A DNA stretch of 24,000 nucleotides. Origin: Candidatus Woesearchaeota archaeon (GTDB lineage Archaea; Nanobdellota; Nanobdellia; Woesearchaeales; GW2011-AR9). A program made the position numbers and the translations under genes. The stretch covers positions 74,128 to 98,127 of the forward strand of contig JABHQW010000002.1 of NCBI GenBank assembly GCA_018696595.1. Direction: 5' to 3'. The notes below the pieces were generated by a model. The model had not been told where the DNA came from. It did no database searches and saw only the letters and a list, made by a program, of their open reading frames with translations. Positions 1 to 16,949 of the stretch are shown piece after piece (the first letter of the stretch is position 1; the number at the start of each line of letters is the position of its first letter).

Positions 1-447
1 GTTGGAACTTTAACTAGAAAACTTTCTCAGAAAGTTTTACCTAAAGGAAGAGTTTATGCTTTTGATTTTATTGAGCATAATGTTAGGGTTGCTTTATCTC
101 ATATGAAGAGACACGGACATGTTAACTTTTACCACCATAAACATTTAGATCATTTTAAAACAACTATCAAATTGCCGAAGATGGATGCTTTAGTTTCTAC
201 TGGTTCTTTGTCTTATATGCAAAAGCCACAAAATGTTTTGAACCATTTAGGTAAGCATGTCAAGAAAGGTGGCCGAGTTGTATTCTTAGATTACGATCAG
301 TTCTTTTTCTTTATTCCTAATGTGCCCTGGATTAGTGATGAGAAAAAACTTAAAAAGATGTTTAAGATTGCTAGTTTTGAAGTTGAAGTTATTAAGAAAC
401 GCGGATTGTTATGGAGACATATCTTTATTCATGGTAAGAAAGTTTAA
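1..447 (+). CDS. SAM-dependent methyltransferase-like domain; 3' part of a gene that starts upstream of the window (probably a third APC-permease/methyltransferase paralog)
   Basis: Frame 1 is open from nt 1 (VGTLTRKLSQKVLPKGRVYAFDF...) and is in frame with tracked ORF 103..447. It aligns along its whole length with the C-terminal 150 aa of 3929..6004: GTLTRKL, SLSYMQKPQNVL vs MLSYMQNPLKVL, GGRVVFLDYDQFFFFIPNV vs GADVVFLDYDKFFYFIPNV, KRGLLW, terminal GKKV vs GKRV. Confidence 0.8.
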   Translation, partial: VGTLTRKLSQKVLPKGRVYAFDFIEHNVRVALSHMKRHGHVNFYHHKHLDHFKTTIKLPKMDALVSTGSLSYMQKPQNVLNHLGKHVKKGGRVVFLDYDQFFFFIPNVPWISDEKKLKKMFKIASFEVEVIKKRGLLWRHIFIHGKKV

Positions 448-490
448 ATACTATTAAACAATAATTATTATTACAAAAAGAGGTAATAAA

Positions 491-2824
491 GTGGTGAGAA
501 ACAAATTAGACAAAATAATACAACTATTAATCCCTCCCTCATTAGTTCTCCTTCTTGTTGTTACTATCATTGAACTTTTTTATGGTGTTGGTAAATCTAT
601 GTCAATATTTATTGATATTTTTGATGTCTATGTGATTATTATTTTTGCTATTGATTTGTATTACCGATGGTTTGAAACTCCACGCTTTTGGCCTTATATT
701 AAAAAACACATTCTTGATATTATTGCTACTATCCCTTTCAACTTAATTTTTTTAGGAATTGAAGCACTCGCTTTAATAAGAGCGTTAAGGGGTGTTCGTA
801 TTATTGCTAGAATTGTTAAGTTTGCACGATTTGCACGTTATGGTCGTTTATTAAGATTATTAAGATTTGGTGCAAGAGCACCGAGATTTATTAGGGTAAG
901 AAAGCAAGTAAAAAAAGGTAAAATTCGTAAAGTTCAACCGCACGAAAAAGAGTTGAAGAAAACATTGAGTTTTAAAGTAATCCTCCTAATCACAATTAAC
1001 TCCATTATGGGTACTGGTATTTGGTTCCTTACTTCTGCAGGAGCTAAACATGCTGGTCCCGCTTCTTTAGTTTCTTGGGGTGTATTGTCTTTAATTTCTG
1101 TTTATATTGCGATGTGTTTTGGAGAATTAGTTTCTATGTTTCCAAAAGCAGGTGGCGTTTATGAGTTTGCTAAACAAGCTTACGGTAGATTTTGGAGTTT
1201 CGTTATTGGTTGGACCACATCTATTGCTGGAAGTGTAACTATTGCTATGCTTCTTTTAGGTGCGTTACAATATCTTATTCCTCTTAAATATTCTTTTACC
1301 TATATCCCTATTGCAATTTTTTTAATTATTGCTTTCAGTTATGTAGCATTTAGGGGGATGCAAACTTCAACCGTTGTTTTGGTGACCTTTGCAATCATTA
1401 CTTTAACTGCGGTTGTTTCAATTATCATTCCTGGATTTATTAATTTTAAACCGGGCAATCTTGATCCTTTCTTTGTTTTCCCAGCAATGAATGTCTTGTT
1501 AGCAATATTCTTTATTGCGGAAACTTTCTTTGGTTGGGAAAGTGCTATTTTTCTTTCTGCTGAAACAAAAAATCCTTCTAAAATAATGCCTAAGGCGTTA
1601 ATTTACGGAACTCTTATTATTGCGGTTTTGTCTTTCTTTTTAGCTCTTACAGCTATGGGTACTATTCCCTGGGCAGAATTTTCAGAATCTGTAGCACCAC
1701 TAAAAGATTTAGGAAGCGTCCATTTTGGAAATATTGGGGGGATAATCTTTGCAATATTGATTTTTATTTCTGTAATTGGTGCTACTGCAGGTTGGATTGT
1801 AACTGCACCAAGATTATTAATGTCTATTGCTGAAGATAAATTATTTTTCACTCAATTTGCAAAAATTCATCCCAAACATAAAAGCCCTTACGTTTCAATA
1901 ATTTTTCAAGTTTTAGTTGTTTCAACTTTAGTTATTGTTGGGGCTGGTTCGTATGAAACTTTATTGCATATGCTAATTCCTTTAATTTTGGTTGTCTATT
2001 CTGCTGTCTTGTTAAGTCTCGTTATTTTACGTTTTAAAAGACCAGAATTAAAACGACCTTACAAAGTTATTTTTGGAAAAGTTGGCCCTCTTATCACGAT
2101 GCTGTTTATGGTTTTTCTATTAATAATGTTTATTAAAGAAACTCATAGTGCTTTTGACATCTTGAGGATTTCTGCTGGTTTAGTTGCTTTTGGTATCCCT
2201 GCTTATTTCGCAATTGAATTATTTTATGATAAGAAATATGTTACTCTTAGAAGAAATTTGATGGCTAAGTTATCACATCATTATAATAAATTTCCTTTAA
2301 CTAAAATGACATTTAATAAAATAATTTCTTTAGTTGGACCATTTAATAAGAAATCTTCTCTTATGGTTTATAATTCTCCAATGGGGGCTTTTACTCAAAA
2401 AATTGTTAAATCTAAAATTCCTTTCCGTAAAATAATTATTGCCAATCAGTCAAAAGAAGAAATTAAAGTTTTCAAAGAAAAAATTTCTTCTGAAAATAGA
2501 AAACATATTGGTGTGCATTTGTTGAGAAAATTAAGTGTCCCTGTAAATGTGGGGAAAGTAAATGCTTTTGTTTCATTTAATAGTTTAGGACATGTTAAAG
2601 ACGTAGCTGGGTTTGTTCACAATGTAAAGAAAGTTCTTAATAAAAAAGGCAAGTTCTGTTTTTATGTTAAAAACAATTTTCTGAATATGACTCCTAATGC
2701 TTTATTAGTTGAAGATAAGAAAAAGATGCTGGCTTTGTTTAAGAAAGAAAAATTAGTGGTAACTTATAACAAAAAAAGAAGATTGTTTAAGACAGAAATA
2801 TTTATTTGTGGTAAAAAAGTTTAA
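491..2824 (+). CDS. Three-domain membrane protein: N-terminal voltage-sensor-like (S1-S4, no pore) domain + APC-superfamily amino-acid/polyamine permease + C-terminal degenerate methyltransferase-like domain
   Basis: 777-codon ORF with a GTG start 6 nt after GAGGT (480-484). The S4-like helix RALRGVRIIARIVKFARFARYGRLLRLLRF has a basic residue at about every third position, and the S3-like segment is KHILDIIATIPFNLIFL. APC motifs are GGVYEFAKQAYG, SAETKNPSKIMPKAL and KIHPKHKSPY. The C-terminal ~160 aa are homologous to the MTase domains at 1..447 and 5534..6001, but the SAM motifs are altered. Confidence 0.85.
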   Translation: MVRNKLDKIIQLLIPPSLVLLLVVTIIELFYGVGKSMSIFIDIFDVYVIIIFAIDLYYRWFETPRFWPYIKKHILDIIATIPFNLIFLGIEALALIRALRGVRIIARIVKFARFARYGRLLRLLRFGARAPRFIRVRKQVKKGKIRKVQPHEKELKKTLSFKVILLITINSIMGTGIWFLTSAGAKHAGPASLVSWGVLSLISVYIAMCFGELVSMFPKAGGVYEFAKQAYGRFWSFVIGWTTSIAGSVTIAMLLLGALQYLIPLKYSFTYIPIAIFLIIAFSYVAFRGMQTSTVVLVTFAIITLTAVVSIIIPGFINFKPGNLDPFFVFPAMNVLLAIFFIAETFFGWESAIFLSAETKNPSKIMPKALIYGTLIIAVLSFFLALTAMGTIPWAEFSESVAPLKDLGSVHFGNIGGIIFAILIFISVIGATAGWIVTAPRLLMSIAEDKLFFTQFAKIHPKHKSPYVSIIFQVLVVSTLVIVGAGSYETLLHMLIPLILVVYSAVLLSLVILRFKRPELKRPYKVIFGKVGPLITMLFMVFLLIMFIKETHSAFDILRISAGLVAFGIPAYFAIELFYDKKYVTLRRNLMAKLSHHYNKFPLTKMTFNKIISLVGPFNKKSSLMVYNSPMGAFTQKIVKSKIPFRKIIIANQSKEEIKVFKEKISSENRKHIGVHLLRKLSVPVNVGKVNAFVSFNSLGHVKDVAGFVHNVKKVLNKKGKFCFYVKNNFLNMTPNALLVEDKKKMLALFKKEKLVVTYNKKRRLFKTEIFICGKKV

Positions 2825-2831
2825 TGAAAGT

Positions 2832-2839
2832 TTTATAAA
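2832..2839 (+). promoter_or_regulatory. Archaeal TATA box (gaaagTTTTATAAAt) for the 2898 gene
   Basis: TTTATAAA preceded by purine-rich BRE-like gaaag. The same 15-mer pattern recurs at 8691-8705. It lies about 60 nt upstream of ATG 2898, which has its own GGAGG (2884-2888). Confidence 0.5.
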
Positions 2840-2897
2840 TAAAATCGTTTTTAAGAAATAAAGAGACTGATTCTGATGTTGGTGGAGGGAAGTAAAA

Positions 2898-3248
2898 ATG
2901 GTAAAATTAACTTATATTGAAAAAAAAGGATTTACTCAGAACAACCGTTATGACGCTGGAGTTCAAGCTATTAAGGCTACTGGTGTATTGGAAGCTTTTT
3001 ATAATTTATTGCCTAGTCATGATCAAAGAGGATTTAATATTTCTTCTGGTATCGTTGATACTCTCCCTTCTTACTTTGCGGTTCCTATCAAACGAAAATT
3101 AGAAAAAAGTTTTAACCCTAATATACATCCGCAGGATCCAGTAATTGCGGTTGCTGATTACAGATTAAATGAAAGAATTAATCTCAATCCAGAAGAAAAC
3201 CAAACTCTTGATAAATTAATGGAAGGAATAAGTATGGTGCCATTGTAA
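2898..3248 (+). CDS. Hypothetical protein (116 aa), embedded in the permease cluster
   Basis: ORF with GGAGG 9 nt upstream and an upstream TATA box. I recognise no motif. Confidence 0.55.
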   Translation: MVKLTYIEKKGFTQNNRYDAGVQAIKATGVLEAFYNLLPSHDQRGFNISSGIVDTLPSYFAVPIKRKLEKSFNPNIHPQDPVIAVADYRLNERINLNPEENQTLDKLMEGISMVPL

Positions 3249-3256
3249 TCTTTCAT

Positions 3257-3835
3257 CTACTTTTTATTTTTGTTTTTCTTCAAATTTCTTTTCTCTAGAA
3301 CTTTTGTATGTTTCTTCTGATACTCTGGTTTGTGTCTATGAACATGATGTGTGACTTTTGTAAACAATCTTGATTTGGTAACAATTCTTAATGATCGAGC
3401 AGCTAATCTAATATACTTAGCAATTTTCTGACTTCTACTTAAGGCAGAGATGCCTTTTCTTGCTTCTAATGACTCATGTAATATTGCTTGACTAATGGTG
3501 TATTTTCCAGCAGTTGCAGCGACTCGCCAAACTCGACTTACAATAGTAAATACAATCACTAGGGGGACAACTGCGACTATATCTAACCAGTAACTTTTGA
3601 AAAAGAATTTCCAGGTTTTAGCTTTGATTGCCAAGAAGATCAAATCAATGACAAAGATGACGATGATAAAGTAATCTAATGCCACAATCGGTGTATGGTA
3701 AAGTTCAACAAAATGATGAACTGATTCGTTAAAGTACCCGATGACTTCTAAAACGATAATTATCAGCAAACCCACAATCGCTGCTGGAATTAACTTGGCA
3801 TTCCAATGTTCAACCTTTTCCCAAAAATTATTCAT
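3257..3835 (-). CDS. Free-standing voltage-sensor-like 4-TM protein (ion-transport S1-S4 module without pore), 192 aa
   Basis: I place the start at the internal ATG (3835, MNNFWEKVEHW...), because the longer tracked ORF would overlap the divergent gene and swallow the promoter. A TATA box on the minus strand sits about 26 nt upstream, giving a leaderless layout. The S3-like segment is SYWLDIVAVVPLVIVF, followed by basic S4-like stretches SRVWRVAATAGK and KYIRLAARSLRIVTKSRLFTK. No GYG/pore region is present. Confidence 0.7.
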   Translation of the reverse strand: MNNFWEKVEHWNAKLIPAAIVGLLIIIVLEVIGYFNESVHHFVELYHTPIVALDYFIIVIFVIDLIFLAIKAKTWKFFFKSYWLDIVAVVPLVIVFTIVSRVWRVAATAGKYTISQAILHESLEARKGISALSRSQKIAKYIRLAARSLRIVTKSRLFTKVTHHVHRHKPEYQKKHTKVLEKRNLKKNKNKK

Positions 3836-3857
3836 AGAAGAAAGTAATTTTTTTAGG

Positions 3858-3865
3858 TATATAAA
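3858..3865 (-). promoter_or_regulatory. TATA box (minus strand TTTATATA) for the 3835 VSD-like gene
   Basis: The minus strand reads aaaaTTTATATAc, centred about 26 nt upstream of ATG 3835. This matches the leaderless spacing seen at other genes in the window. Confidence 0.5.
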
Positions 3866-3882
3866 TTTTGTCCTGTGATAAC

Positions 3883-3891
3883 TTTTATAAA
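3883..3891 (+). promoter_or_regulatory. TATA box (cTTTTATAAAt) for the 3929 permease-methyltransferase gene
   Basis: It lies back-to-back with the minus-strand box in the 93-bp divergent intergenic region. The predicted start site near 3912-3915 leaves a short leader containing AGAGG (3918-3922), 6 nt before ATG 3929. Confidence 0.5.
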
Positions 3892-3928
3892 TGATAGAAC
3901 AATAGTTAACTATGAAAAGAGGCATGAG

Positions 3929-6004
3929 ATGAAACTTAAACAGTTCTGGCAGTATTTAGTTACGGATAGTTCTAAGAAGAAGAAAGTTACAACTCTAACT
4001 TCTAATAAATCTATTTCTACTAAAACTGTAACTGTAAAAAGGCATCAATCTACCGCAAAAAGACTTCTCTCATCACCGGTTGTACTATTTATTTTAATTA
4101 ACTCTATCTTAGGGAGCTCATTATTTTACCTCCCCAGCCTAGGAGTTGTTTCTTCTGGGGCGGCATCACTTATTGCTTGGATTCTATTATTTGCTCTTTC
4201 AACATTTATGATGCTTTACGTTTCTGAATTAATTACTTTACATCCTACCTCAGGTGGAACTTACGAGTTCTGTAAACGAGCTTACGGAAGACAAATCTCT
4301 TTTTTTGCTGGCTGGATTATTTGGATTGCTGGAAATTTCGGAATGGCTCTTAATGTAGTGGCGGCTTCTGAATACTTTATCCCAGATACTTATTCTTACT
4401 ACTTCATTTTACGACTAGTTTTTGCAGCAATCTGGATTCTTGTTCTTAACTTTATGGCTTTTAGAGGAATAGATGCGGGAGCAACAATGTTAGTTGTTTT
4501 CGGAATTTTAACTGTGGTTGTAGTGATTGCAATGATCTTACCTTCTTTCATTGACATTCCTACTTTGTTTCAAGGAAGTTTAACCAGCCCATTTCAATTA
4601 GAAATGATGCAACCTTTCTTCCGTCATACTGGATTAGGAATATTTAGTTTCTTACTTCTCTCGGTTTTCTTAATCGCGGAAGCATTCTTTGGTTTTGAAA
4701 CAGTAAGTTATATGGCTAACGAAGTTAAAGATAAAAAGAATTTACCAAAAATAATGATTTCTGCAATGGTCATTTGTGGTGTTATCATGACGATTTATCT
4801 GTTAAGTTCGTTGGGGACAGTTTCTTATCATGATTATGTTAGTGATGCTCGGCCTTGGGCAGTACAGGCATTAAACAATATGGGCAGTTTAGGACAGAAC
4901 TTTGTTGTTTTTGGTATGTACCTAGTAATTATTGGTGCGGCAGCAGCGTGGCCAATTGCTAGTTCAAGATTGATTAGGGCGATGTCTAGCGATAAATTGT
5001 TTTTGAAACATTTCTCAAAGTTACATCCAAAACACAAATCTCCTTATCGTGCAGTTTATTTTCAAACAATCATAATTTTCTTATTTGCTTGGTTTATTTT
5101 TCGTGGATATATTGTTAAATGGGGTGATCCATATCGGACCATTTACTTAATCTACTTATTACTAAGTTTAATTGTACTATCACTTGTCCTTTTTGCAGTT
5201 CCTATCTTGAGGAAGAAAGAAGCACATTTGAAAAGAACATTTAAGGCGCCATTACCTTGGCTTGGTCCAATATTCTTTGTTGGTCTTTTTGTTTTCATGA
5301 TTATTAATTGGATCAGAATTGAAGGTGGTGTAGCAACGTCTGTAATTTTAATGGCAGGGTCATTTGTTGTTTTAGGAATTCCATTTTATTTCTTAGTGGA
5401 AATGTTTTACAATCCTAAGGCTATCATCTCAGTTAATGAAAGGTTATCTTATTTTGTAGTTATTGGAGAAAAATTATTTTTTCCTTTTACTATTAGAAAC
5501 AGATTGATTAAAGACCTAAAAACTTTGCGAGGGAAGTCTGTTTTAGAGTATGGTTGTTCTTTCGGAACACTAACTCGGAAGTTGGCAAAGAAAGTTACTT
5601 CTACTGGAAAAATTTACGCGACAGATTTATCTTTACACAAAGTTAAGATTGCTGATCAAAGAACAAAACGAATCAAGCATGTTTTTGTTCATCATCATCC
5701 TCATTTGAGTGATTTCAAATTGAAATTGCCTCAGAAGGTTGATAACGTGCTCTCTGTGGGGATGTTATCTTACATGCAGAATCCTTTGAAAGTATTGTCA
5801 AGTTTAGCGAAGCGAGTAAAAAGGGGTGCTGACGTAGTATTCTTGGATTATGATAAATTCTTTTACTTTATTCCTAACGTGAAGTGGATTGAAGAAGATA
5901 AAAAGCTAATTGCTTTATTCAAACGAGCGGGTTACAAAGTCAAAGTAGAAAGAAAACGTGGTTTATTATGGACTTATGTTATTATTAGTGGAAAAAGAGT
6001 TTAA
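3929..6004 (+). CDS. APC-superfamily amino-acid/polyamine permease fused to a C-terminal class-I SAM-dependent methyltransferase domain
   Basis: I place the start at ATG 3929 (MKLKQFWQYL), which has an SD; the tracked 3875 start overlaps the divergent gene. APC motifs are SGGTYEFCKRAYG, FFGFETVSYMANEVKDKKNLPKIM and KLHPKHKSPY. The MTase domain (5534-6001) shows motif I VLEYGCSFGTLT, an acidic beta-2 end IYATDLS, and GADVVFLDYD. Confidence 0.85.
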   Translation: MKLKQFWQYLVTDSSKKKKVTTLTSNKSISTKTVTVKRHQSTAKRLLSSPVVLFILINSILGSSLFYLPSLGVVSSGAASLIAWILLFALSTFMMLYVSELITLHPTSGGTYEFCKRAYGRQISFFAGWIIWIAGNFGMALNVVAASEYFIPDTYSYYFILRLVFAAIWILVLNFMAFRGIDAGATMLVVFGILTVVVVIAMILPSFIDIPTLFQGSLTSPFQLEMMQPFFRHTGLGIFSFLLLSVFLIAEAFFGFETVSYMANEVKDKKNLPKIMISAMVICGVIMTIYLLSSLGTVSYHDYVSDARPWAVQALNNMGSLGQNFVVFGMYLVIIGAAAAWPIASSRLIRAMSSDKLFLKHFSKLHPKHKSPYRAVYFQTIIIFLFAWFIFRGYIVKWGDPYRTIYLIYLLLSLIVLSLVLFAVPILRKKEAHLKRTFKAPLPWLGPIFFVGLFVFMIINWIRIEGGVATSVILMAGSFVVLGIPFYFLVEMFYNPKAIISVNERLSYFVVIGEKLFFPFTIRNRLIKDLKTLRGKSVLEYGCSFGTLTRKLAKKVTSTGKIYATDLSLHKVKIADQRTKRIKHVFVHHHPHLSDFKLKLPQKVDNVLSVGMLSYMQNPLKVLSSLAKRVKRGADVVFLDYDKFFYFIPNVKWIEEDKKLIALFKRAGYKVKVERKRGLLWTYVIISGKRV

Positions 6005-6009: not shown

Positions 6010-7074
6010 TTATTTTCTTTTCTTTTTCTTTACTACTTTTTTTTTAATAACTTTCTTGGCAGTTTTCTTTTTGAGAGTTTTCTTCTTTACTGGTTTCTTT
6101 TTAGCAACTTTTTTTACTGTCTTTTTCTTTGTTACTTTCTTTTTAGCTACCTTTTTCTTGACAGGTTTTGTTACAACTTTCTTTTTAGAAGATTCTTTCT
6201 TACTAAAACTTACACTTTTCTTAGCAGCTAAATTTAATTTCTCTAAATCTTCAACAATATCAGAAGCAATGAAACAGTAACCTTTTTTTCTCTTCAATAA
6301 TTGGTCGCCAACCCAGCCATTAACATAACTTGCCGCAACTGCACTTTTAAACAAGTCTCTTGTCTTAGATAAAAATCCCACTGCTAGACCCGCTAAAACA
6401 TCTCCTGTGCCAGCTTTAGTCATTCCTTGATTGCCAGTTCTATTGTAAGCAACTTTATTTCTTGAAATAATTATATCTGTGGCTCCTTTCAGAAGTAGAA
6501 CATTATTGTTTTGTAAAAAGTAACGTAAGTTTCCTTGCAGAATATCTGCTTTTTCTTTAGCATTAGCTGATTTTAGTTTTGGTAACAGAAACTCTTTGCC
6601 ACTGTTAGCTAACATCATTTCTAATTCTGCTTCGTGTGGAGTAATGATAGAATTGTTGAAATCTTTAAATGACATTGATTTTAATGCATCAGCATCAACA
6701 ACTTTTAATCGTGGTGATTTTCTGATAAAATATTGGCTGAACTTGTCTGCTTTTCTGGTAATACCATTGCCTAAACAAATTGCATCAAATAATTCTGCAT
6801 ACTTAACCATTTCTTTTGCGTTTTTAATATTAAAATTACTGCCTTTGATTTTGTGAGTTATTAAATCTGGAGAGTAAGAGTTAATTATCCAAGCAACCTT
6901 TTCTGGGGCTGCAATCGTTACTGAATCACAACCAGCTCTTAGTGCTGCTAATCCTGCAAGGGCTGGAGCACCAACATAATCTTCAGAACCGCCAATAATT
7001 AAGGCATAACCATTTTCTCCTTTAGAAGAATTTTTCTTTCTGTCCATTAACTTTTTCACTTGATTAAGATTCAT
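6010..7074 (-). CDS. nnrD: ADP/ATP-dependent NAD(P)H-hydrate dehydratase-like (YjeF C-terminal / carbohydrate-kinase fold) with a ~70-aa lysine-rich C-terminal tail
   Basis: The N-terminus KGENGYALIIGGSEDYVGAPALAGLAALRAGCD and the motif AGTGDVLAGL are characteristic of the YjeF_C family. GAGGT lies 6 nt upstream of ATG 7074. The tail is KKESSKKKVVTKPVKKKVAKKKVTKKK...KKKKRK. Confidence 0.7.
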   Translation of the reverse strand: MNLNQVKKLMDRKKNSSKGENGYALIIGGSEDYVGAPALAGLAALRAGCDSVTIAAPEKVAWIINSYSPDLITHKIKGSNFNIKNAKEMVKYAELFDAICLGNGITRKADKFSQYFIRKSPRLKVVDADALKSMSFKDFNNSIITPHEAELEMMLANSGKEFLLPKLKSANAKEKADILQGNLRYFLQNNNVLLLKGATDIIISRNKVAYNRTGNQGMTKAGTGDVLAGLAVGFLSKTRDLFKSAVAASYVNGWVGDQLLKRKKGYCFIASDIVEDLEKLNLAAKKSVSFSKKESSKKKVVTKPVKKKVAKKKVTKKKTVKKVAKKKPVKKKTLKKKTAKKVIKKKVVKKKKRK

Positions 7075-7321: not shown

Positions 7322-7825
7322 ATGAAACATACTTTTGTATTTATTGATAAAATTGTGGATTTGCTTAGTGGTGGTCCGCGTCAGACTATAGAAACTCCAG
7401 AAAGGAAAGAAGAAGCTAGAAAAATTTGCACCGAACTTCTGAAGTATATTGGGATTCTTGATACGCTCATTAAGAACCATAAAGAAGAAAAATATTTGAA
7501 AAGATTACACGATGCCCACATTTCTAAGATTAGCGATTGGGCAGATCAAGTAGCTAAATTGTTTGAAAGATTTGATTCTTTCTTAAGGATCTTAGAAGCT
7601 GACATTAAAAAATTACAAGCAATTATAGAGGGTGATAGAGATGAAGAATGGTCAACACGGTTTGGTTCTACTGGTTTTGGTTTATATATGTCTGGATTGC
7701 ATGATAAAGAAAATGAAATGAAAAGGTTCAGAGAGATTGCAGTTTTTGAAATGCATGAACTTAAAGGAACGATTTCAGCCGAACATCTGGCGGAATTGGA
7801 ACAAGTTTTAGATTTATTAGAATGA
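7322..7825 (+). CDS. Hypothetical protein (167 aa), predicted helical/coiled
   Basis: This ORF has more ordinary composition than the overlapping minus-strand ORF 7546..7890, and it has a leaderless-type promoter. No motif recognised. Confidence 0.5.
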   Translation: MKHTFVFIDKIVDLLSGGPRQTIETPERKEEARKICTELLKYIGILDTLIKNHKEEKYLKRLHDAHISKISDWADQVAKLFERFDSFLRILEADIKKLQAIIEGDRDEEWSTRFGSTGFGLYMSGLHDKENEMKRFREIAVFEMHELKGTISAEHLAELEQVLDLLE

Positions 7826-8251: not shown

Positions 8252-8650
8252 TTATCTTTGGGCGTAAGCAAATGTTGCTTTCAAGGCCACAATTATTGTT
8301 GCTGGCACAAACAATGTTAAGATTCCTGTCAACATATTAGTTATTGACGGAGCAACAGCATCAAAAATTCCCACTTGAATTCCTAAGAACGAGATTAATA
8401 CTAATACTGTTCCACTAGTTAAGAATCCAGAAATCTCTTCAACTGCAATGTTTAGTAATCCTACTATAATCCCTAATAGAAATACTGTCCATAAAATTTC
8501 TTTCTGGTAAGCACCAGTAAAACCCAATCCTAATACTATAGCAAGAAACAGCCCAATTAAGAATGACCAACTGCCAACTAAATTTCTACGGCAATAACTT
8601 CCTTCACATTTGACCTGTTTTGCAACTTTTTTTTTCTTTCTTTTAACCAT
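8252..8650 (-). CDS. Small integral membrane protein (about 132 aa, 3-4 TM), hypothetical
   Basis: The tracked ORF starts at GTG 8659. ATG 8650 (MVKRKKKK...) lies 6 nt after GAGGTG (minus strand, 8662-8657), so I prefer it. A basic N-terminus is followed by hydrophobic segments. Confidence 0.6.
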   Translation of the reverse strand: MVKRKKKKVAKQVKCEGSYCRRNLVGSWSFLIGLFLAIVLGLGFTGAYQKEILWTVFLLGIIVGLLNIAVEEISGFLTSGTVLVLISFLGIQVGIFDAVAPSITNMLTGILTLFVPATIIVALKATFAYAQR

Positions 8651-8696
8651 AAATTTCACCTCTTTTTCTCTAGAATTATTTTATGGTATAAAAAGT

Positions 8697-9266: not shown

Positions 9267-9340
9267 GGGCCGGTAGCTTAGCTTGGAAGAGCGCCTGACT
9301 TTTAATCAGGCGGTCGAGGGTTCAAATCCCTTCCGGCCCG
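9267..9340 (+). tRNA. tRNA-Lys (anticodon UUU), intron-less
   Basis: Acceptor GGGCCGG pairs with CCGGCCC, discriminator G. D-arm GCTT-AGCTTGGAA-GAGC. Anticodon arm CCTGA-CTTTTAA-TCAGG. T-arm GAGGG-TTCAAAT-CCCTT. Length 74 nt, no CCA. Confidence 0.9.
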
Positions 9341-9371
9341 CTCATATTCAACAAATGGAGAAAAATCAAAA

Positions 9372-9608
9372 ATGACTCTTGATGGAAACAAACACCTACT
9401 AATTCCGAAACATAGTAAATTAAATGAATCAGATAAAAAGAAGCTATTAGAAGAATACAAAATCAATGTTTTCTCTTTACCTAAGATTACTAGTGAAGAT
9501 CCTGCTATTGTTAAATTTAATGCAAAAGTTGGAGACGTAATTAAAATTGAGAGAGACAGTAAAACTGCTGGAACTACATCCTATTATCGTGTTGTAGTGG
9601 AAAGCTAG
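9372..9608 (+). CDS. rpoH: DNA-directed RNA polymerase subunit H (Rpo5)
   Basis: 78 aa. HLLIPKHSKLNESDKKKLLEEYKINVFSLPKI...DPAIVKFNAKVGDVIKIER...YYRVVV matches the RpoH/Rpb5 C-domain pattern, and the gene is first in the rpo operon. Confidence 0.9.
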   Translation: MTLDGNKHLLIPKHSKLNESDKKKLLEEYKINVFSLPKITSEDPAIVKFNAKVGDVIKIERDSKTAGTTSYYRVVVES

Positions 9609-9625
9609 AGGGAGGAAAAAATCAA

Positions 9626-11101
9626 ATGGACCGATCCATCTTAATCAAAAAATATTTCGAAGAAAAACGATTTGTGGACAGTAGTATTCAGTCTTTTAAT
9701 AACTTTATAGATAATGGTTTGCAAGAAGTTGTTGAAGAGAATAAAGAAGCAGAGCCTGCAATTATCCCACATAATATTGAAAAATTTAAAATCAGGTTCG
9801 GAAGAATTACTGTTGGTAAACCTGAAATTACTGAAGCCGATGGAAGTAAGAGGCCAATTTATCCTGCTGAAGCAAGATTAAGAAAAATTTCTTATTATGC
9901 TCCTATCTATTTGGAAGTTAGTACTTATATTAATGATGTTCAAAGAGAAAGTTTTGTTGCAGAAATTGGAAAAATGCCAATCATGCTTAGAAGTAAATAT
10001 TGTCATCTTGACGGGTTAAGCCGAGAAGAACTAATTAAACATGGTGACGACCCAACTGATCCTGGTGGATACTTTATTATTAACGGAACTGAAAGAGTAA
10101 TTGTTAATGTTGAAGATTTGGCAGCTAACAATTTTATTGTTGAAGGTAATCCCATTAAAGGATATAATGGGAGATTCTTTGCAGCAAAAGGATCTTACAA
10201 AATTCCTCATTCTTTTGAAAGGAAGAAAGATGGGATTTATTATATGACATTTACTCGGGTTAAGAATATGCCCATTATAGTTGTATTAAAAGCATTGGGG
10301 CTAACTAAAGACGAAGATATCATGCGAGCAATCTCTGCTAATGAAACTTATGAAGAAGTAATTCTTAACTTGTTTGAATTTGTTGATATCAAAACTCAAG
10401 AAGATGCAGTGGATTACATTTCTAAAAGAATTGGAATCGCTCAAGCTAAAGAAATTAGAATTGAAAGAACTAAAGAAATCTTAGACAAGTTCTTGTTACC
10501 TAATATTGGTATGGATATTGGCTTGAAATCAATAAAAGCAAAAAACATTTGTAAGATGTTAAAGAAATTCATTGATGTTAGAAAAGAAACAAGACCTTCT
10601 GATGATAAGGATCATTACATGAATAAAAGACTGAGACTTAGTGGAGACTTAATGATTGATTTGTTTAGAGTTAATTTTAAAATTCTGGTTGGAGATATTC
10701 TTTACAACTTTCAAAGAATTATCAAACGGGGAAAATTACCTTCAATCCGAGTTATTATTAGAGATAAGTTGTTAACTTCTAGACTTTATTCTTCAATGGC
10801 TACCGGAGAATGGGTTGGTGGGAGACAAGGAGTATCTCAAAGAATGGATCGTTCAAATTTTTTGGCAATGGTATCACATTTACAAAAGGTTGTTAGTCCG
10901 TTATCTTCAAGTCAAGAGAATTTTGACGCAAGAGCATTACATTGTACGCACATTGGTAGGTTGTGTCCAATTGAAACTCCTGAAGGTACAAACATTGGGC
11001 TAAGAAAAAACATGGCAATGTTATGTTCAATCTCACAAGACGTTGGGGAAACTAGCGTTCTTGAGAAAGTTAAAGAATTAGGTTTAAAACCTATCGAATA
11101 A
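9626..11101 (+). CDS. rpoB2: DNA-directed RNA polymerase subunit B'' (N-terminal half of split Rpo2)
   Basis: 491 aa with GGAGG upstream. Motifs include GYFIINGTERVIV, DDKDHYMNKRLRLSGDL and CPIETPEGTNIGL. Confidence 0.95.
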   Translation: MDRSILIKKYFEEKRFVDSSIQSFNNFIDNGLQEVVEENKEAEPAIIPHNIEKFKIRFGRITVGKPEITEADGSKRPIYPAEARLRKISYYAPIYLEVSTYINDVQRESFVAEIGKMPIMLRSKYCHLDGLSREELIKHGDDPTDPGGYFIINGTERVIVNVEDLAANNFIVEGNPIKGYNGRFFAAKGSYKIPHSFERKKDGIYYMTFTRVKNMPIIVVLKALGLTKDEDIMRAISANETYEEVILNLFEFVDIKTQEDAVDYISKRIGIAQAKEIRIERTKEILDKFLLPNIGMDIGLKSIKAKNICKMLKKFIDVRKETRPSDDKDHYMNKRLRLSGDLMIDLFRVNFKILVGDILYNFQRIIKRGKLPSIRVIIRDKLLTSRLYSSMATGEWVGGRQGVSQRMDRSNFLAMVSHLQKVVSPLSSSQENFDARALHCTHIGRLCPIETPEGTNIGLRKNMAMLCSISQDVGETSVLEKVKELGLKPIE

Positions 11102-11110
11102 GGAAATAAA

Positions 11111-12913
11111 ATGGCAGACGTTTATATTAATTCAAGATTTGTAGGAACAGTAGATGACATTAATCTATTTGTTGAGAACATAAAAGATGAAAGAAGAAAA
11201 GGTTCTTTGGCAGAAGATGTTAATGTTTATACTGATATAGAAAACAATGAAGTTCACGTTAATTGTGATGGTGGAAGAGCAAGAAGGCCTTTAATAATTA
11301 TTAAAGAAGGAAAATCTTTGCTAACAGAAAGACACTTGAAACAATTAAAAGATGGCGAAATCACTTGGGCTGATTTAGTGAGACAAGGAGTCGTAGAATA
11401 TTTGGACGCTGGTGAAGAAGAAAATGCATTAGTGGCTTACGACGAAACTCAATTAACCGAGAAACATACGCACATGGAAATTACTCCTGGGTCTATTAGT
11501 GGAATTGCAACTGCATTGGTTCCTTTTGGAAACTTTAACCAATCTTCAAGATTAATTATTGGAAGTAAGAACCAGAAACAATCTTTAGGATTCTATGCTG
11601 CTAATTATCACATTAGATTAGATATGGATACAAACTTATTACATTATCCACAATTTCCTTTAGTTAAAACTAAGTTACACGATGTTACTAATTATGATGA
11701 ACATCCGGCCGGCCAGAATATGGTTGTTGCTATAATGTGTTTCGATGGTTATAACATGGAGGATGGAGTTATATTAAACAAGAGTTCTGTTGAGAGAGGA
11801 TTGGCAAGAAGTACTTATTTCCGTCCAGTATCTGCAGAAGAATTACGTTATTCTGGTGGTTTAATTGATGAAGTTTCTATTCCTGATAAAGAAGTTAAAG
11901 GTTATCGTAGTGAAGCCGATTACAAGTTCCTTGAAGGGGACGGAATTATCTATCCTGAAGCAAAAGTATGTGATGGTGACGTGATTATTGGAAGAACATC
12001 TCCTCCTAGATTCTTGAGTAGTTTGGATGAATACAATTTATCTGCTGCCATTAGAAGAGAAAGTTCTGTTTCTTTGAAACATGGAGAAAAAGGTGTGGCT
12101 GACTTTGTCGTTATTACTGAAAATGAAGAAGGTAACAAACTTGTTCAAGTAAGATTAAGGGAGGAAAGAATTCCAGAGATTGGAGATAAATTCACTTCTC
12201 GTCATGGTCAGAAAGGAGTTACAGGTATTTTAGTTCCTGTGCAAGACATTCCTTTTTCCGCTAATGGAATTACTCCTGACTTAATTTTCACTCCGCACGG
12301 TATTTCTTCTCGGATGACCATTTCTCATTTATTAGAATTAATTGGTGGGAAAGTTGGTGCATTATCTGGAAGATTTGTTGATGGGACTTTATTTGAGGCA
12401 GAATCTGAACTTAATATGCGAGCAGAATTATTAAATCTTGGTTTTAAAGAAGATGGAACCGAAACATTTTATGATGGTCGGACTGGAAAGCAGATGTTAG
12501 CTAAGATTTATGTGGGAAACATGTATTATCTGAGACTAAGACATTTAGTTGCTAACAAAATGCAATCTCGGGCAAGAGGACCAATCCAATTACTAACAAG
12601 ACAACCAACTGAGGGTAAGGCTAAAGAAGGTGGTCTAAGGTTGGGAGAGATGGAGAAGGATGTTTTCATTGCTCACGGTGCTTCATTATTATTGAAGGAA
12701 AGGTTTGATTCTGATAAAACAAACTTACCAGTTTGTGAAAAGTGTGGCCTAGTGGCAGTTGAAGACCAATACAAGAATAGAAAGTACTGTTTGATGTGTG
12801 GCGAAGATGTTAACATTAATTATGTTGAGATGAGTTACGCATTTAAATTACTGTTAGACGAAATAAGAAGCTTAGGTATCTACCCTAAGTTGAATTTAGA
12901 AAATAAGTATTAA
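11111..12913 (+). CDS. rpoB1: DNA-directed RNA polymerase subunit B' (C-terminal half of split Rpo2)
   Basis: 600 aa. Motifs include GDKFTSRHGQKGV, GGLRLGEMEKD and the C-terminal Zn ribbon CEKCG...CLMCG. It starts 9 nt after the B'' stop. Confidence 0.95.
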   Translation: MADVYINSRFVGTVDDINLFVENIKDERRKGSLAEDVNVYTDIENNEVHVNCDGGRARRPLIIIKEGKSLLTERHLKQLKDGEITWADLVRQGVVEYLDAGEEENALVAYDETQLTEKHTHMEITPGSISGIATALVPFGNFNQSSRLIIGSKNQKQSLGFYAANYHIRLDMDTNLLHYPQFPLVKTKLHDVTNYDEHPAGQNMVVAIMCFDGYNMEDGVILNKSSVERGLARSTYFRPVSAEELRYSGGLIDEVSIPDKEVKGYRSEADYKFLEGDGIIYPEAKVCDGDVIIGRTSPPRFLSSLDEYNLSAAIRRESSVSLKHGEKGVADFVVITENEEGNKLVQVRLREERIPEIGDKFTSRHGQKGVTGILVPVQDIPFSANGITPDLIFTPHGISSRMTISHLLELIGGKVGALSGRFVDGTLFEAESELNMRAELLNLGFKEDGTETFYDGRTGKQMLAKIYVGNMYYLRLRHLVANKMQSRARGPIQLLTRQPTEGKAKEGGLRLGEMEKDVFIAHGASLLLKERFDSDKTNLPVCEKCGLVAVEDQYKNRKYCLMCGEDVNINYVEMSYAFKLLLDEIRSLGIYPKLNLENKY

Positions 12914-12933
12914 ACTTATGTTGAGGAAAAAAA

Positions 12934-15504: not shown

Positions 15505-16646
15505 AAGCAGAACACACAAAAATAATTAATAGCTATGCTGATAAATTACCTCCATTAGTATTGAAAACAGTGGAAGAAGAAGTTCCTGGAAATATTAGTG
15601 CTAGCAATCTATCTAAGATTATGGAAGGAGTTATTGCAGCTTACAAATATGCTGAAGTTCATCCTGGTGAAAGTGTTGGTTTAGTTGGCGCTGAAAGTAT
15701 TGGTGAGCCTGGTACACAAATGACTTTGAATACGTTTCACTTGGCTGGGGTTGCTGAAGTACAAGTTACTACTGGTTTGCCAAGGATTATTGAAGTTTTT
15801 GATGCAAGAAAAGAAATCAAAACTCCAATGATGGAGATTTATCTTAAAAGTCCACATAATAAAAATATGGAAAAAGTTCGTAAGTTTGCTGCTAATATTA
15901 AAGAGATGAAATTTGAAGAATTTGTTTCCGAATATTCATTAAGTATCTTTGATCAGACTCTTAAAGTAGTTTTAAATAAAGGTTTGTTAGATGACAATGC
16001 TTTAGTTGCAAAAGACTTAATCAAGTTAATTAAGACTAAAGCAAAGGGATTTAATTTAACAAGTCAAAATGAAGAGATTCTTTTTACTCATAAAGGTAAA
16101 ACTGAGGAAATTAAAGATCTTTATGCAATCAAGGAAAAAATTAAAGATGTTAAAGTTGGCGGAGTCAAGGGTTTGAAACAAGTTCTTCCAGTAAAGCGAA
16201 ATGAAGAATATGTTGTTTTAACTTCTGGAAATAATTTGAAAGATGTTTTGGCTTTACCTGAGGTTGATTCAAATAGAACAACTAGTAACGACATCTATGA
16301 AATTTATAAAGTTCTGGGCATTGAAGCGGCTAGACAAGCAATAATTAATGAGGTTTACAAAGTTGTTGAATCTCAAGGATTGAATGTTAATATTCGTCAT
16401 ATTATGCTTGTAGCAGACGTGATGTGTGCTAGTGGTGTGGTTAAAGGAGTTACTCGTTATGGTGTTGTTAGTGAGAAAGCTAGTGTTTTAGCAAGGGCAT
16501 CTTTTGAAACTCCATTAAAACATTTATTTAATGCTGCATTGGAAGGGGAAGTTGATGACCTGACTTCTGTAGTTGAAAATGTAATGATTAATCAGCCAGT
16601 TCCAATTGGTACTGGGTTACCTGGATTAATAACAAAGATGAAATAA
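15501..16646 (+). CDS. rpoA2: DNA-directed RNA polymerase subunit A'' (Rpo1C)
   Basis: 381 aa. The ATGA start/stop overlap with rpoA1 suggests translational coupling. Motifs [29 protein letters not shown] are present. Confidence 0.95.
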
Positions 16647-16661
16647 TGACGGTGAGTTTAT

Positions 16662-16949
16662 ATGGCAAAGAAAAAAGAAATTAATGAAGAAATTAAATTA
16701 CTGAAAGCTAAAGTTCAAGAGGATAAAGCAATTATTGGGACTGATAGAGTAGTCAAAGAGTTAAGAAAGAAAAGCCTTAGTAAGGTGTTTTTGTCCAGTA
16801 ATTGTCCTGATAACACTAAAAGTGATATTCAACATTACGCTGATTTAGTGAAGGTTCCAGTTGTTCAATTAGATTTGAATAACGAAGAACTAGGAGTTGT
16901 TTGTAAAAAAGAATTCTTCATCTCTGTTTTAGGTATTAGCGGAGAATAA
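16662..16949 (+). CDS. rpl30e: 50S ribosomal protein L30e
   Basis: 95 aa with an L30e/L7Ae-fold pattern (GTDRVVKELRKK...VFLSSNCP...ELGVVCKK) in the canonical position after rpoA''. Confidence 0.85.
   Translation: MAKKKEINEEIKLLKAKVQEDKAIIGTDRVVKELRKKSLSKVFLSSNCPDNTKSDIQHYADLVKVPVVQLDLNNEELGVVCKKEFFISVLGISGE

What the first reader, a model, noticed from the sequence alone, without database searches (positions are those of the whole stretch)
491..2824. Pore-less voltage-sensor-like domain covalently fused to an APC secondary transporter and a methyltransferase-like domain
Seen in sequence: one uninterrupted 777-codon frame. Residues 1-135 contain four hydrophobic segments arranged like S1-S4 of the voltage-gated ion-channel superfamily. 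The S2-like segment is IFDVYVIIIFAIDLYYRWF and the S3-like segment is KHILDIIATIPFNLIFL. The S4-like helix carries Arg/Lys at nearly every third position (RALRGVRIIARIVKFARFARYGRLLRLLRF, nt ~770-868). There is no S5-P-S6 pore module and no T-x-G-Y/F-G filter anywhere. Instead a basic linker leads directly into an APC permease core (GGVYEFAKQAYG, SAETKNPSKIMPKAL, KIHPKHKSPY), followed by a ~160-aa cytoplasmic domain homologous to the neighbouring methyltransferase domains. Established knowledge: pore-less VSDs are known coupled to a phosphatase (VSP) or acting as a proton channel (Hv1). I know of no characterised secondary transporter with an attached VSD. Inference: uptake gated or tuned by membrane potential. 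The topology is self-consistent, since a 4-TM VSD ends in the cytoplasm where the APC N-terminus begins.
Basis: partly seen in the sequence, partly recalled or inferred. Interest (0 to 1): 0.8.

Follow-up and report, generated by a model that had tools for sequence, protein, structure and literature searches.

The report
Voltage sensor fused to amino-acid transporter
A small archaeon encodes, as one conserved protein, a channel-type voltage-sensor domain without any pore joined to an amino-acid transporter; the only transporter known so far to be controlled by such a sensor is the animal sperm exchanger SLC9C1.

Summary
Window 491-2824 (+) is one 777-codon gene with a GAGGT ribosome-binding site. 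It encodes an N-terminal S1-S4 voltage-sensor domain (VSD, aa 1-139), a conserved basic linker, a 12-helix APC amino-acid permease (aa 158-600) and a C-terminal methyltransferase-like domain.

VSD homology rests on sequence profiles. A profile of 112 orthologous N-termini hits only voltage-gated channels in the PDB, with KvAP best at E 2.8e-6. The S2 and S3 countercharges, the S2 Phe and about 13 basic residues at every third position are nearly invariant. There is no pore or selectivity filter.

The fusion is not an artefact. More than 120 protein clusters and 21 of 301 genomes of the phylum (Woesearchaeota/Nanoarchaeota, DPANN) carry it, and it appears to have arisen once.

That protein is eukaryotic, has a different transporter fold, and carries the VSD at the C-terminal side.

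The most likely function is voltage control of amino-acid transport through the long S4 helix that leads into permease TM1. This is inferred, not shown. The methyltransferase domain has lost its SAM-binding motifs in this protein.

I rate it a new variant of a known kind, and of high interest.

The parts
480..484 (+). Shine-Dalgarno-like GAGGT, 6 nt upstream of the GTG start
   Evidence: Read directly from the sequence.
491..2824 (+). Whole gene: VSD - linker - APC permease - methyltransferase-like domain (777 aa, P0001)
   Evidence: Orthologues of 735-860 aa with the same order are found in more than 120 clusters.
491..766 (+). S1-S3 of the voltage-sensor domain (aa 1-92). It carries S1 E28, S2 D42/D45, F52, D55 and R59, and S3 D76 and P82.
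   Evidence: These residues are 96-100% conserved in 112 orthologues. The region aligns without gaps to KvAP S1-S3. AF2 models helices 5-31, 35-60 and 66-79/83-97 at pLDDT 65-86.
767..907 (+). S4 and its extension (aa 93-139). Basic residues sit at 97, 100, 103, 107, 110, 113, 116, 119, 122, 125, 129, 132, 135, 137 and 138. The exact membrane-embedded part is uncertain.
   Evidence: Basic-residue frequency is 91-100% at most ladder positions; aa 106-114 vary in length. The region aligns to KvAP S4 and to HCN S3-S4. AF2 confidence is low here.
908..961 (+). Conserved basic linker (aa 140-157) with the near-invariant motif I145-R-K-x-Q-P-H-E-K153, directly before permease TM1
   Evidence: Searches list H151 as invariant and I145, R146, K147, Q149, P150, E152 and K153 as at least 90% conserved. 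The VSD-less paralogue aligns only from aa 154 onward.
962..2290 (+). APC-superfamily amino-acid permease core (aa 158-600), 12 predicted helices
   Evidence: PF13520 E 1.6e-44 and PF00324 E 5e-33. TIGR00909 E 6e-52. Nearest solved structures are BasC 6f2g (E 1.5e-29), xCT, GkApcT and LAT1. Helix pattern.
2318..2824 (+). C-terminal methyltransferase-like alpha/beta domain (aa 610-777), degenerate SAM motifs
   Evidence: Methyltransf_11 at 24.3 bits when scanned alone. It aligns to the methyltransferase domains of P0123 and P0279. Motif I reads V-Y-N-S-P-M-G here versus D-Y-D-C-G-x-G-G in deeper orthologues. AF2 strand/helix pattern has pLDDT about 80-90.
1..447 (+). 3' end of the upstream paralogue: a 636-aa APC + methyltransferase protein without a VSD (P0279), 45% identical to aa 154-777 of P0001
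3257..3925 (-). Stand-alone VSD-like gene (P0122). It probably starts at Met31, nt 3835. It is divergent from the next permease gene.
   Evidence: Ion_trans E 1.4e-4. hhalign against the fused-VSD profile gives probability 97.6%, E 3.6e-12. It is the second hit in the organism's own genome.
3875..6004 (+). Third paralogue: APC permease + methyltransferase domain without a VSD (P0123). It probably starts at Met18, nt 3926. It is 30% identical to P0001.
2898..3248 (+). 116-aa ORF of unknown function between the fused gene and the stand-alone VSD gene
   Evidence: ORF list; no Pfam hit. Its membership of the system is not shown.

Best explanation
The gene encodes one polypeptide in which a pore-less, Kv-type voltage-sensor domain (S1-S4) sits at the N-terminus of a LeuT-fold APC amino-acid transporter. 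The transporter also carries a C-terminal methyltransferase-like domain, which here is probably non-catalytic.

Shown:
- The domain order.
- VSD homology.
- Retention of all residues that define a working sensor.
- Absence of a pore.
- A single origin and purifying selection.

Inferred:
- Membrane potential moves the arginine-rich S4.
- S4 continues as an unusually long basic helix (about 40 residues, roughly 60 A if helical) and, through a roughly 20-residue invariant linker, runs straight into permease TM1. TM1 is the helix whose cytoplasmic half opens and closes the inner gate in LeuT-fold carriers.
- S4 displacement would therefore bias the transporter between locked and transport-competent states, much as the long S4 of SLC9C1 releases an inhibitory cytoplasmic helix.

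My guess for polarity is that transport is allowed when the membrane is energised (inside negative) and locked on depolarisation, which would prevent loss of amino acids by reverse transport. Sequence cannot decide this.
For: Architecture:
- One open frame with a ribosome-binding site.
- AA_permease_2 E 1.6e-44.

VSD homology:
- phmmer of aa 1-150 against the PDB gives KvAP VSD 1ors E 8e-4 as best hit, followed only by Kv4, Kv2, Kv1.2, hERG and HCN.
- A profile of 112 orthologous N-termini gives KvAP E 2.8e-6, aligned without gaps over positions 15-134. All 38 hits at E<=1 are voltage-gated channels.
- 48 of 112 fused N-termini individually hit PF00520 (best 1.6e-6), with no competing family.
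- 68 of 107 members of the wider family hit PF00520 (best 2.5e-9).
- Fold: Foldseek's top hits are KvAP VSD 1ors and 2kyh (prob 1.00 and 0.99, TM 0.46-0.51, E 0.03-0.07). KvAP 6uwm ranks first of 48,161 chains in VIA-align (Z 8.5, 99 residues, rmsd 3.8, 22% identity).

Sensor residues:
- D45, F52, D55, L56 and R59 are invariant. Their spacing D-x6-F-x2-D-x3-R equals Shaker E283-F290-E293-R297 (established knowledge: the gating-charge transfer centre).
- S3 D76 is 99% acidic and S1 E28 is 100% acidic.
- Basic residues at 97, 100, 103, 116, 119, 122, 125, 129, 132 and 135 are 91-100% conserved.

Selection and reality of the fusion:
- VSD pairwise identity is 0.64-0.66, against 0.77 for the permease and 0.43 for the methyltransferase domain.
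- More than 120 clusters carry the fusion.
- 21 of 301 genomes of the phylum carry it, in uninterrupted frames of 760-867 aa (one frame of 607 aa lies near a contig end).
- All 24 sampled fused VSDs form one clade with SH support 97. The only nested 'stand-alone' comes from a 1.4-kb contig.

Coupling:
- The linker motif is near-invariant.
- Two-chain prediction of VSD (aa 1-140) against permease (aa 141-610) gave weak support only. The score was 0.38 and the best of 3 controls 0.00.
- That mark was reached by 58 of 80 solved complexes and 2 of 110 mismatched pairs. At 0.60 or under it was reached by only 7 of those 80 solved complexes and by both mismatches that passed.
- The runs agree in at least 76% of contacts, and the partner's pLDDT is at least 57.

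Precedent: SLC9C1 is gated by a VSD whose S4 is about 60 A long and has no S4-S5 linker (PMC10620092).
Against: - No functional data exist for any member.
- The Pfam Ion_trans score is below the curated cut-off (19.1 vs 25 bits).
- AF2 models S3b-S4-linker with pLDDT below 50 in the full-length model, and as one unbroken helix 83-129 in the isolated domain. The four-helix bundle and its docking are therefore not structurally confirmed.
- The fold-search Z of 8.5 is within the background for helical bundles.
- Which part of the 40-residue ladder spans the membrane is ambiguous. The KvAP alignment puts S4 at about 97-116, while comparison with stand-alone relatives suggests about 113-135. Residues 106-114 are deleted in some orthologues.
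- The genome shows no ATP-synthase catalytic subunit with PF00006 at 97% completeness, so how this cell sets its membrane potential is unclear.
Confidence: 0.6

Rival explanations
1. The N-terminal domain is a true VSD homologue but no longer senses voltage. It would instead serve as a structural, oligomerisation, lipid-sensing or partner-binding module of the transporter.
For: The same lineage holds hundreds of small pore-less relatives whose function is unknown. Many of them have a long acidic S3-S4 insert, so the module may have a lineage-specific, non-electrical role. AF2 does not confidently fold S4 into the bundle.
Against: Every residue class needed for charge translocation is 91-100% conserved across 112 orthologues: the S4 ladder, the outer and inner acidic clusters, and the Phe plug. 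That conservation is hard to explain for a passive scaffold.
Confidence: 0.2
2. The VSD itself conducts protons or ions, in the manner of Hv1 or an omega pore. It would supply or dissipate the coupling-ion gradient next to the carrier rather than gating it.
For: Pore-less VSDs can conduct (Hv1; omega currents in Ci-VSP countercharge mutants, PMC10686229). The domain has conserved acidic residues in S1 and S2.
Against: The hydrophobic-plug Phe (F52) is invariant and the arginine ladder is complete and very long; in Kv-type sensors these features seal the pathway (established knowledge). S1 E28 aligns to the ordinary S1 Glu of KvAP, not to a mid-S1 Hv1-type selectivity Asp. No Hv1 sequence appears among the PDB hits.
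Confidence: 0.07
3. The N-terminal 140 aa are merely extra permease helices with a chance basic stretch, unrelated to VSDs.
For: The Pfam hit is below the gathering threshold. Fold-search scores are modest.
Against: The family profile hits only VSD-bearing channels in the PDB, with a 120-residue gapless KvAP alignment at E 2.8e-6. 48 of 112 orthologues hit Ion_trans with no competing family. The charge-transfer-centre spacing matches exactly. The closest paralogue lacks the region altogether and aligns only from aa 154.
Confidence: 0.03
4. The fusion is an assembly or frameshift artefact that joins two genes.
For: None found. A stand-alone VSD gene does exist nearby.
Against: Uninterrupted frames of 760-867 aa occur in 20 other genomes (a further one, 607 aa, lies near a contig end). 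More than 120 independent protein clusters from NCBI, JGI, ENA, Logan and Tara assemblies carry the same architecture. The junction motif is conserved.
Confidence: 0.01

Closest known systems
[quoted passage not shown]
   Same: A secondary transporter covalently joined to a pore-less S1-S4 VSD. It has a very long S4 (about 60 A), no S4-S5 linker, and an extra cytoplasmic regulatory domain (PMC10620092, PMC6052114).
   Different: SLC9C1 is metazoan. Its carrier is an NhaA/CPA-fold elevator exchanger, its VSD lies C-terminal to the carrier, and its third domain is a CNBD. Here the organism is a DPANN archaeon, the carrier is a LeuT-fold APC permease, the VSD is N-terminal and feeds directly into TM1, and the third domain is methyltransferase-like. 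No sequence relationship between the two fusions was seen, so the origin is independent.
KvAP and other 6-TM voltage-gated channels (Pfam Ion_trans PF00520)
   Same: KvAP is the best sequence and fold match for S1-S4. The S2/S3 countercharges, the Phe plug and the S4 ladder are the same.
   Different: There is no S5-P-S6 pore and no selectivity filter. The S3-S4 loop is very short and S4 is about twice the usual length.
HCN channels
   Same: The profile matches HCN1, HCN3 and HCN4 over S3-S4 (E 3e-4 to 4e-3). HCN has an unusually long S4 that extends into the cytoplasm (PMC10620092).
   Different: There is no pore and no CNBD. Hyperpolarisation-activated polarity is only a conjecture here.
Ci-VSP / Hv1 (pore-less VSD proteins)
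   Same: A VSD used without a channel pore, coupled to or acting as a different effector.
   Different: The effector here is a 12-TM carrier, not a phosphatase, and nothing indicates Hv1-like conduction. Neither protein appears among the sequence hits.
BasC / GkApcT / LAT-type APC amino-acid transporters
   Same: The permease core aligns over about 415 residues (E 1.5e-29 to 1e-23) and shows the typical TM1 G-T-G and TM6 G-W-E motifs.
   Different: None of the solved relatives has an N-terminal VSD or a C-terminal methyltransferase domain.

Membership tests
Voltage-sensor domain (S1-S4 module of Ion_trans, PF00520) | Significant sequence-profile match restricted to the S1-S4 part | tested here: met
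   - Single sequence: E 8e-4, 19.1 bits, below Pfam's 25-bit cut-off, over profile positions 15-110.
- Family profile against the PDB: KvAP E 2.8e-6, and all 38 hits are VSD channels.
- 48 of 112 orthologues hit PF00520, best 1.6e-6.
Voltage-sensor domain (S1-S4 module of Ion_trans, PF00520) | S4 with Arg/Lys at every third position | tested here: met
   There are 13-15 basic residues between aa 97 and 138, and most are 91-100% conserved.
Voltage-sensor domain (S1-S4 module of Ion_trans, PF00520) | Gating-charge transfer centre: aromatic plug plus acid in S2, acid in S3, and an outer acidic cluster | tested here: met
   F52, D55 and D45 are invariant. D76 is 99% acidic and E28 100% acidic. The spacing equals that of Shaker and Kv1.2 (established knowledge).
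Voltage-sensor domain (S1-S4 module of Ion_trans, PF00520) | Four-helix antiparallel bundle fold | tested here: inconclusive
   S1-S3 are modelled well and KvAP is the top hit in both searches. S4 has pLDDT below 50-60 and Z 8.5 is within the helical-bundle background.
Voltage-sensor domain (S1-S4 module of Ion_trans, PF00520) | Voltage-driven charge displacement (gating current) | not testable with these tools
   This needs electrophysiology or voltage-clamp fluorometry.
Voltage-gated ion channel (6-TM) | S5-P-S6 pore with a selectivity filter | tested here: not met
   Ion_trans matches only profile positions 15-110 of 241. There is no TxGYG or GYG motif. The residues after S4 belong to AA_permease.
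APC superfamily amino-acid permease (PF13520 / PF00324) | Profile match above the curated cut-off over the whole core | tested here: met
   152.9 bits against a cut-off of 27, over aa 159-547 and profile positions 1-407 of 427. PDB relatives are BasC, xCT, GkApcT and LAT1.
APC superfamily amino-acid permease (PF13520 / PF00324) | 12 transmembrane helices (5+5 inverted repeat plus 2) | tested here: met
   AF2 gives 12 long helices between aa 161 and 578. The hydropathy segments agree. The inverted-repeat geometry itself was not examined.
APC superfamily amino-acid permease (PF13520 / PF00324) | Specific equivalog or defined substrate | tested here: not met
   The best NCBIfam hit is TIGR00909 at 177 bits, far below its 556.8-bit cut-off, and no equivalog was reached. 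The substrate is unknown.
Class I SAM-dependent methyltransferase | Profile match | tested here: inconclusive
   Methyltransf_11 scores 24.3 bits (cut-off 21.2) for the isolated domain but 20.8 bits in the whole protein. The paralogues P0123 and P0279 and the deeper orthologues match strongly.
Class I SAM-dependent methyltransferase | Motif I (acidic-x-G-x-G-x-G) and an acidic residue at the end of strand 2 for SAM binding | tested here: not met
   P0001 has V-Y-N-S-P-M-G and A-N-Q. Deeper orthologues have D-Y-D-C-G-x-G-G and A-V/I-D. This protein is probably a pseudo-enzyme domain.
SLC9C1-type voltage-gated transporter | VSD and secondary carrier in one polypeptide | tested here: met
SLC9C1-type voltage-gated transporter | CPA/NHE carrier and a CNBD, with common descent | tested here: not met
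   The carrier is an APC permease. No Na_H_Exchanger or cNMP-binding hit was found. The resemblance is an analogy, not membership.
SLC9C1-type voltage-gated transporter | Transport activated by voltage | not testable with these tools
   This needs transport assays under a controlled membrane potential.

The most novel reading that the evidence does not exclude
This is the first prokaryotic voltage-gated secondary transporter, and the first on the LeuT/APC fold. It arose independently of SLC9C1, and its S4 is mechanically wired to TM1.

It would also be one use of a wider, undescribed toolkit of pore-less VSD modules in DPANN archaea:
- stand-alone 150-230-aa VSD proteins, present in about half of the sampled genomes;
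- HPP-domain-VSD fusions in metagenomes.

Such modules would let tiny, ATP-synthase-poor cells tie membrane transport to their electrical state.
Probability: 0.5. Interest if true: 0.9.

Novelty: new variant of a known kind. Interest (0 to 1): 0.78.

Why it matters
Until now exactly one transporter, SLC9C1, has been known to be controlled by a voltage-sensor domain (PMC10620092). The general question of whether and how a VSD can drive a carrier rather than a pore therefore rests on a single, hard-to-handle eukaryotic protein.

An independent, compact, prokaryotic example would show that VSD-to-carrier coupling evolved more than once. This one sits on the best-understood carrier fold (LeuT/APC, which includes the LAT and CAT transporters of medical interest).

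It also comes with natural controls in the same gene cluster: a 45%-identical VSD-less paralogue and a stand-alone VSD.

It would further bear on how DPANN archaea with minimal bioenergetics regulate nutrient uptake, and on the pre-channel evolutionary history of the VSD module. Databases currently label these proteins only as 'APC family permease' or 'basic amino acid/polyamine antiporter'.

Tried and rejected
1. Full-length AF2 and N-terminus-only AF2, run to see S4 packing. The S3b-S4-linker region came out at pLDDT below 50-60, so no conclusion was drawn. Coordinates and PAE were not available.

2. Foldseek against the PDB found no match at E<=0.001, although KvAP ranked first. The VIA-align wide search gave Z 8.5, which is not clearly above helical background. 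I treat the fold evidence as supportive only.

3. Hypothesis that stand-alone VSD genes are habitual neighbours of APC genes, i.e. a split form of the fusion. Of 40 stand-alone loci across the phylum, only 2 had an APC-methyltransferase neighbour, and both were in the window's own family. Similar adjacency also occurs in G260 and G137. I rejected this as a general rule and kept it as a family-specific cluster.

4. Hypothesis that the genome has a pore-only K+ channel that could pair with the VSDs. The weak Ion_trans pore-half hit on contig 7 is a 117-aa ORF without a filter motif, so it was rejected.

5. HPP-VSD fusions were not found as fusions in the 301 sampled genomes of the phylum. Only their VSD half matched the stand-alone genes.

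6. Literature searches for any VSD-APC, DPANN voltage-sensor or prokaryotic VSD-only report returned nothing relevant. The library lacks most subscription journals, so absence is not proven.

7. The second profile, built mainly from stand-alone members (A4), matched KvAP only over S1-S3. It did not improve on A3.
Full report
**1. The observation**

Window 491-2824 (+) is a single 777-codon frame. A GAGGT sits at 480-484, six bases before the GTG start. Orthologues begin with Met at the same aligned position. The next in-frame Met is residue 36, which would cut into S1.

The Arg/Lys ladder is aa 97-126 (nt 779-868) and actually continues to aa 138. No K+-filter-like motif occurs anywhere in the protein.

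**2. Domain composition**

- **Permease.** Pfam finds AA_permease_2 over aa 159-547 (E 1.6e-44). NCBIfam places it nearest TIGR00909, without reaching any equivalog cut-off. The nearest solved structures are BasC, xCT, GkApcT and LAT1.
- **Methyltransferase-like domain.** The match over aa 646-724 is weak.
- **N-terminus.** Ion_trans appears only when the N-terminus is scanned alone: E 8e-4, 19.1 bits against a cut-off of 25. The match covers profile positions 15-110, which is the S1-S4 half.
- **Helix pattern.** The AF2 secondary structure gives four N-terminal helices, twelve permease helices (aa 161-578), and then an alpha/beta domain. A four-helix sensor that starts and ends in the cytoplasm fits the cytoplasmic N-terminus of APC carriers.

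**3. Is the N-terminus a real VSD?**

*Sequence searches.*
- Single-sequence phmmer against all PDB chains ranks the isolated KvAP sensor first (1ors, E 8e-4). Only Kv4, Kv2, Kv1.2, hERG and HCN follow it.
- I collected 112 full-length orthologues (alignments A2 and A3). The N-terminal profile hits KvAP at E 2.8e-6 in a gapless alignment of positions 15-134. All 38 PDB hits up to E=1 are voltage-gated channels, and the HCN hits cover S3-S4.
- 48 of the 112 N-termini hit PF00520 on their own (best 1.6e-6), with no competing family.

*Signature residues.* Column statistics show the canonical sensor signature under strong constraint.
- S1 E28 is 100% acidic.
- S2 D42 is 96% acidic, and D45, F52, D55, L56 and R59 are invariant.
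- S3 D76 is 99% acidic and P82 is invariant.
- Basic residues lie at 97, 100, 103, (107, 110, 113), 116, 119, 122, 125, 129, 132 and 135, and most are 91-100% conserved.
- The spacing D45-F52-D55-R59 equals Shaker E283-F290-E293-R297, the gating-charge transfer centre (established knowledge).

*Fold.* The structural evidence is only supportive.
- The isolated-domain model (pLDDT 72.8) has KvAP VSD as its top Foldseek hits (prob 1.00, E 0.03, TM about 0.5).
- KvAP also ranks first of 48,161 chains by VIA-align (Z 8.5, 99 residues, rmsd 3.8). That Z is within helical-bundle background.
- S4 is poorly modelled in both predictions.

I conclude that VSD homology is established by sequence and the fold is not independently confirmed.

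**4. Is the fusion real?**

- More than 120 clusters at 90% identity, with proteins of about 735-860 aa, share the N-terminus and the permease. They come from NCBI, JGI, ENA, Logan and Tara assemblies and sit on contigs up to 922 kb. Source names are Woesearchaeota or Nanoarchaeota.
- In a sample of 301 genomes of the window's phylum, 21 carry the fused frame with no internal stop. Fifteen are in the window's family and six are in other families of the same order.
- On a FastTree of 24 fused and 79 stand-alone VSDs, all fused ones fall in one clade (SH 97). The single nested short protein comes from a 1.4-kb contig and is probably a truncated fused gene.
- Domain-wise pairwise identity is 0.64-0.66 for the VSD, 0.77 for the permease and 0.43 for the methyltransferase domain.

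An assembly or frameshift artefact is excluded. The fusion arose once and has been kept under purifying selection.

**5. Context**

The window's genome is 1.19 Mb in 8 contigs and 97% complete. The rest of the window holds archaeal core genes: split rpoB, rpoA, NusA-KH, S12, S7, Kae1, gyrB and tRNA-Lys.

The gene lies in a cluster that holds all three strong APC genes of the genome, in this order:
1. A 636-aa APC-methyltransferase paralogue without a VSD. It ends at window 447 and is 45% identical to aa 154-777 of the fused protein.
2. The fused gene.
3. A 116-aa ORF.
4. A stand-alone VSD-like gene on the minus strand (3257-3925), with hhalign probability 97.6% and E 3.6e-12 against the fused-VSD profile.
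5. A 709-aa APC-methyltransferase paralogue, divergent from the stand-alone gene and 30% identical to the fused protein.

Comparable arrangements occur in relatives of the same family. Across the phylum, however, only 2 of 40 stand-alone VSD loci have an APC neighbour.

**6. The wider VSD family**

- The fused-VSD profile finds 539 representatives among 1.84 billion proteins. Nearly all of the best 150 are 150-230-aa proteins with no room for a pore and no filter motif.
- 139 of 301 genomes of the phylum have a match.
- 68 of 107 members of the mixed alignment hit PF00520 individually.
- After S3, the stand-alone proteins carry a 30-40-residue acidic insert. A shorter basic ladder follows, ending in the same R-x-P-R-F motif as the fused proteins.
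- A further architecture, HPP domain (PF04982) followed by this VSD, occurs in metagenome proteins of about 305-313 aa. It sits next to a GluR0-like channel gene and was not found as a fusion in the sampled phylum genomes.

**7. The methyltransferase-like domain**

In deeper-branching fused orthologues, motif I (D-Y-D-C-G-x-G-G) and the strand-2 Asp are intact. The same holds broadly for both VSD-less paralogues. In the subclade of the window protein they read V-Y-N-S-P-M-G and A-N-Q. The domain is well folded in the model (pLDDT 80-90). I infer a non-catalytic, possibly regulatory or structural role in this protein.

**8. Mechanism**

*Shown:* a complete sensor signature, no pore, a covalent link to the carrier, and an invariant linker (I145-R-K-x-Q-P-H-E-K153) that ends a few residues before TM1. 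TM1 starts at about aa 160.

*Inferred:*
- S4 moves with membrane potential. The ladder spans about 40 residues, roughly 60 A if helical.
- Because the ladder continues without an S4-S5 linker into the segment preceding TM1, S4 displacement is transmitted to TM1a or to a cytoplasmic latch.
- This would shift the equilibrium between inward-open and locked states of the LeuT-fold carrier. The role of TM1a in inner-gate opening is established knowledge for LeuT-fold carriers.
- The closest mechanistic precedent is SLC9C1. There a roughly 60-A S4 without an S4-S5 linker moves down on hyperpolarisation and releases an inhibitory helix (PMC10620092).

A two-chain prediction of the VSD against the permease gave weak support only.
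- The score was 0.38 and the best of 3 controls 0.00.
- The mark was reached by 58 of 80 solved complexes and 2 of 110 mismatched pairs. At 0.60 or under it was reached by only 7 of the 80 and by both passing mismatches.
- The runs agree in at least 76% of contacts, and the partner's pLDDT is at least 57.

Polarity is unknown. My guess of activation by an energised membrane, as a check valve against reverse transport, is conjecture. No ATP-synthase catalytic subunit was found with PF00006 in the 97%-complete genome, so the source of the potential is itself an open point.

**9. Comparison and novelty**

The protein works like SLC9C1 but is not a member of that family. The carrier fold differs, the domain order differs, there is no CNBD, and the organism is prokaryotic.

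- It meets the sequence-level defining features of a VSD.
- It fails the defining feature of a voltage-gated channel, which is the pore.
- It is a member of the APC superfamily, with unknown substrate.

Seven literature searches found no report of a VSD joined to an APC carrier, of DPANN voltage sensors, or of natural prokaryotic VSD-only proteins. Public annotations call these proteins plain APC permeases.

**Verdict.** This is a new variant of a known kind and is of high interest. The architecture is secure. The voltage-gating function is plausible, at about 0.6, but untested.

Noticed in passing
window 3257-3925 (-); related loci L016-L055: A stand-alone, pore-less VSD-like gene (P0122) belongs to a large family of 150-230-aa proteins. 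The family is found in 139 of 301 genomes of the phylum and in 539 representatives overall. Members have a long acidic S3-S4 insert and a basic ladder ending in R-x-P-R-F. Sources annotate them as hypothetical proteins and their function is unknown.
   Followed up: partly
window 1-6004 plus L056 8665-10572: All three strong APC permease genes of this 1.19-Mb genome sit in one cluster, and each carries a C-terminal methyltransferase domain. One has the VSD fused, and one lies divergently next to the stand-alone VSD gene.
   Followed up: partly
P0168, P0201, P0221, P0230; L062 1225-2148: Another fusion of the same VSD type exists: an HPP membrane domain (PF04982) followed by a C-terminal VSD, about 305-313 aa. 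It lies on metagenome contigs next to a gene with SBP_bac_3 + Ion_trans_2 (GluR0-like channel). It was not seen as a fusion in the 301 sampled genomes of the phylum.
   Followed up: partly
whole genome G000: No match to the ATP-synthase alpha/beta family PF00006 was found in a genome estimated 97% complete, while all 14 control genomes matched. How this cell builds a membrane potential is unclear.
   Followed up: no
window 2318-2824 (aa 610-777): The methyltransferase-like domain has lost SAM-binding motif I and the strand-2 acidic residue in this subclade. Deeper fused orthologues and both VSD-less paralogues keep them.
   Followed up: partly
L004 1492-1845 (G000 contig 7): A weak Ion_trans pore-half match (E 0.006) falls on a 117-aa ORF with two hydrophobic segments and no K+ filter. 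It is probably a chance hit.
   Followed up: yes
window 2898-3248, 7322-7825, 8252-8659, 18448-18948, 19948-21024: These ORFs of 116-358 aa have no Pfam match.
   Followed up: no
window 9267-23164: A typical archaeal core block follows: tRNA-Lys(UUU), split rpoB (491 + 600 aa), rpoA' and rpoA'', NusA-like KH protein, S12, S7, Kae1/TsaD and gyrB. A Carb_kinase (NAD(P)HX dehydratase) gene lies at 6010-7074 (-).
   Followed up: no
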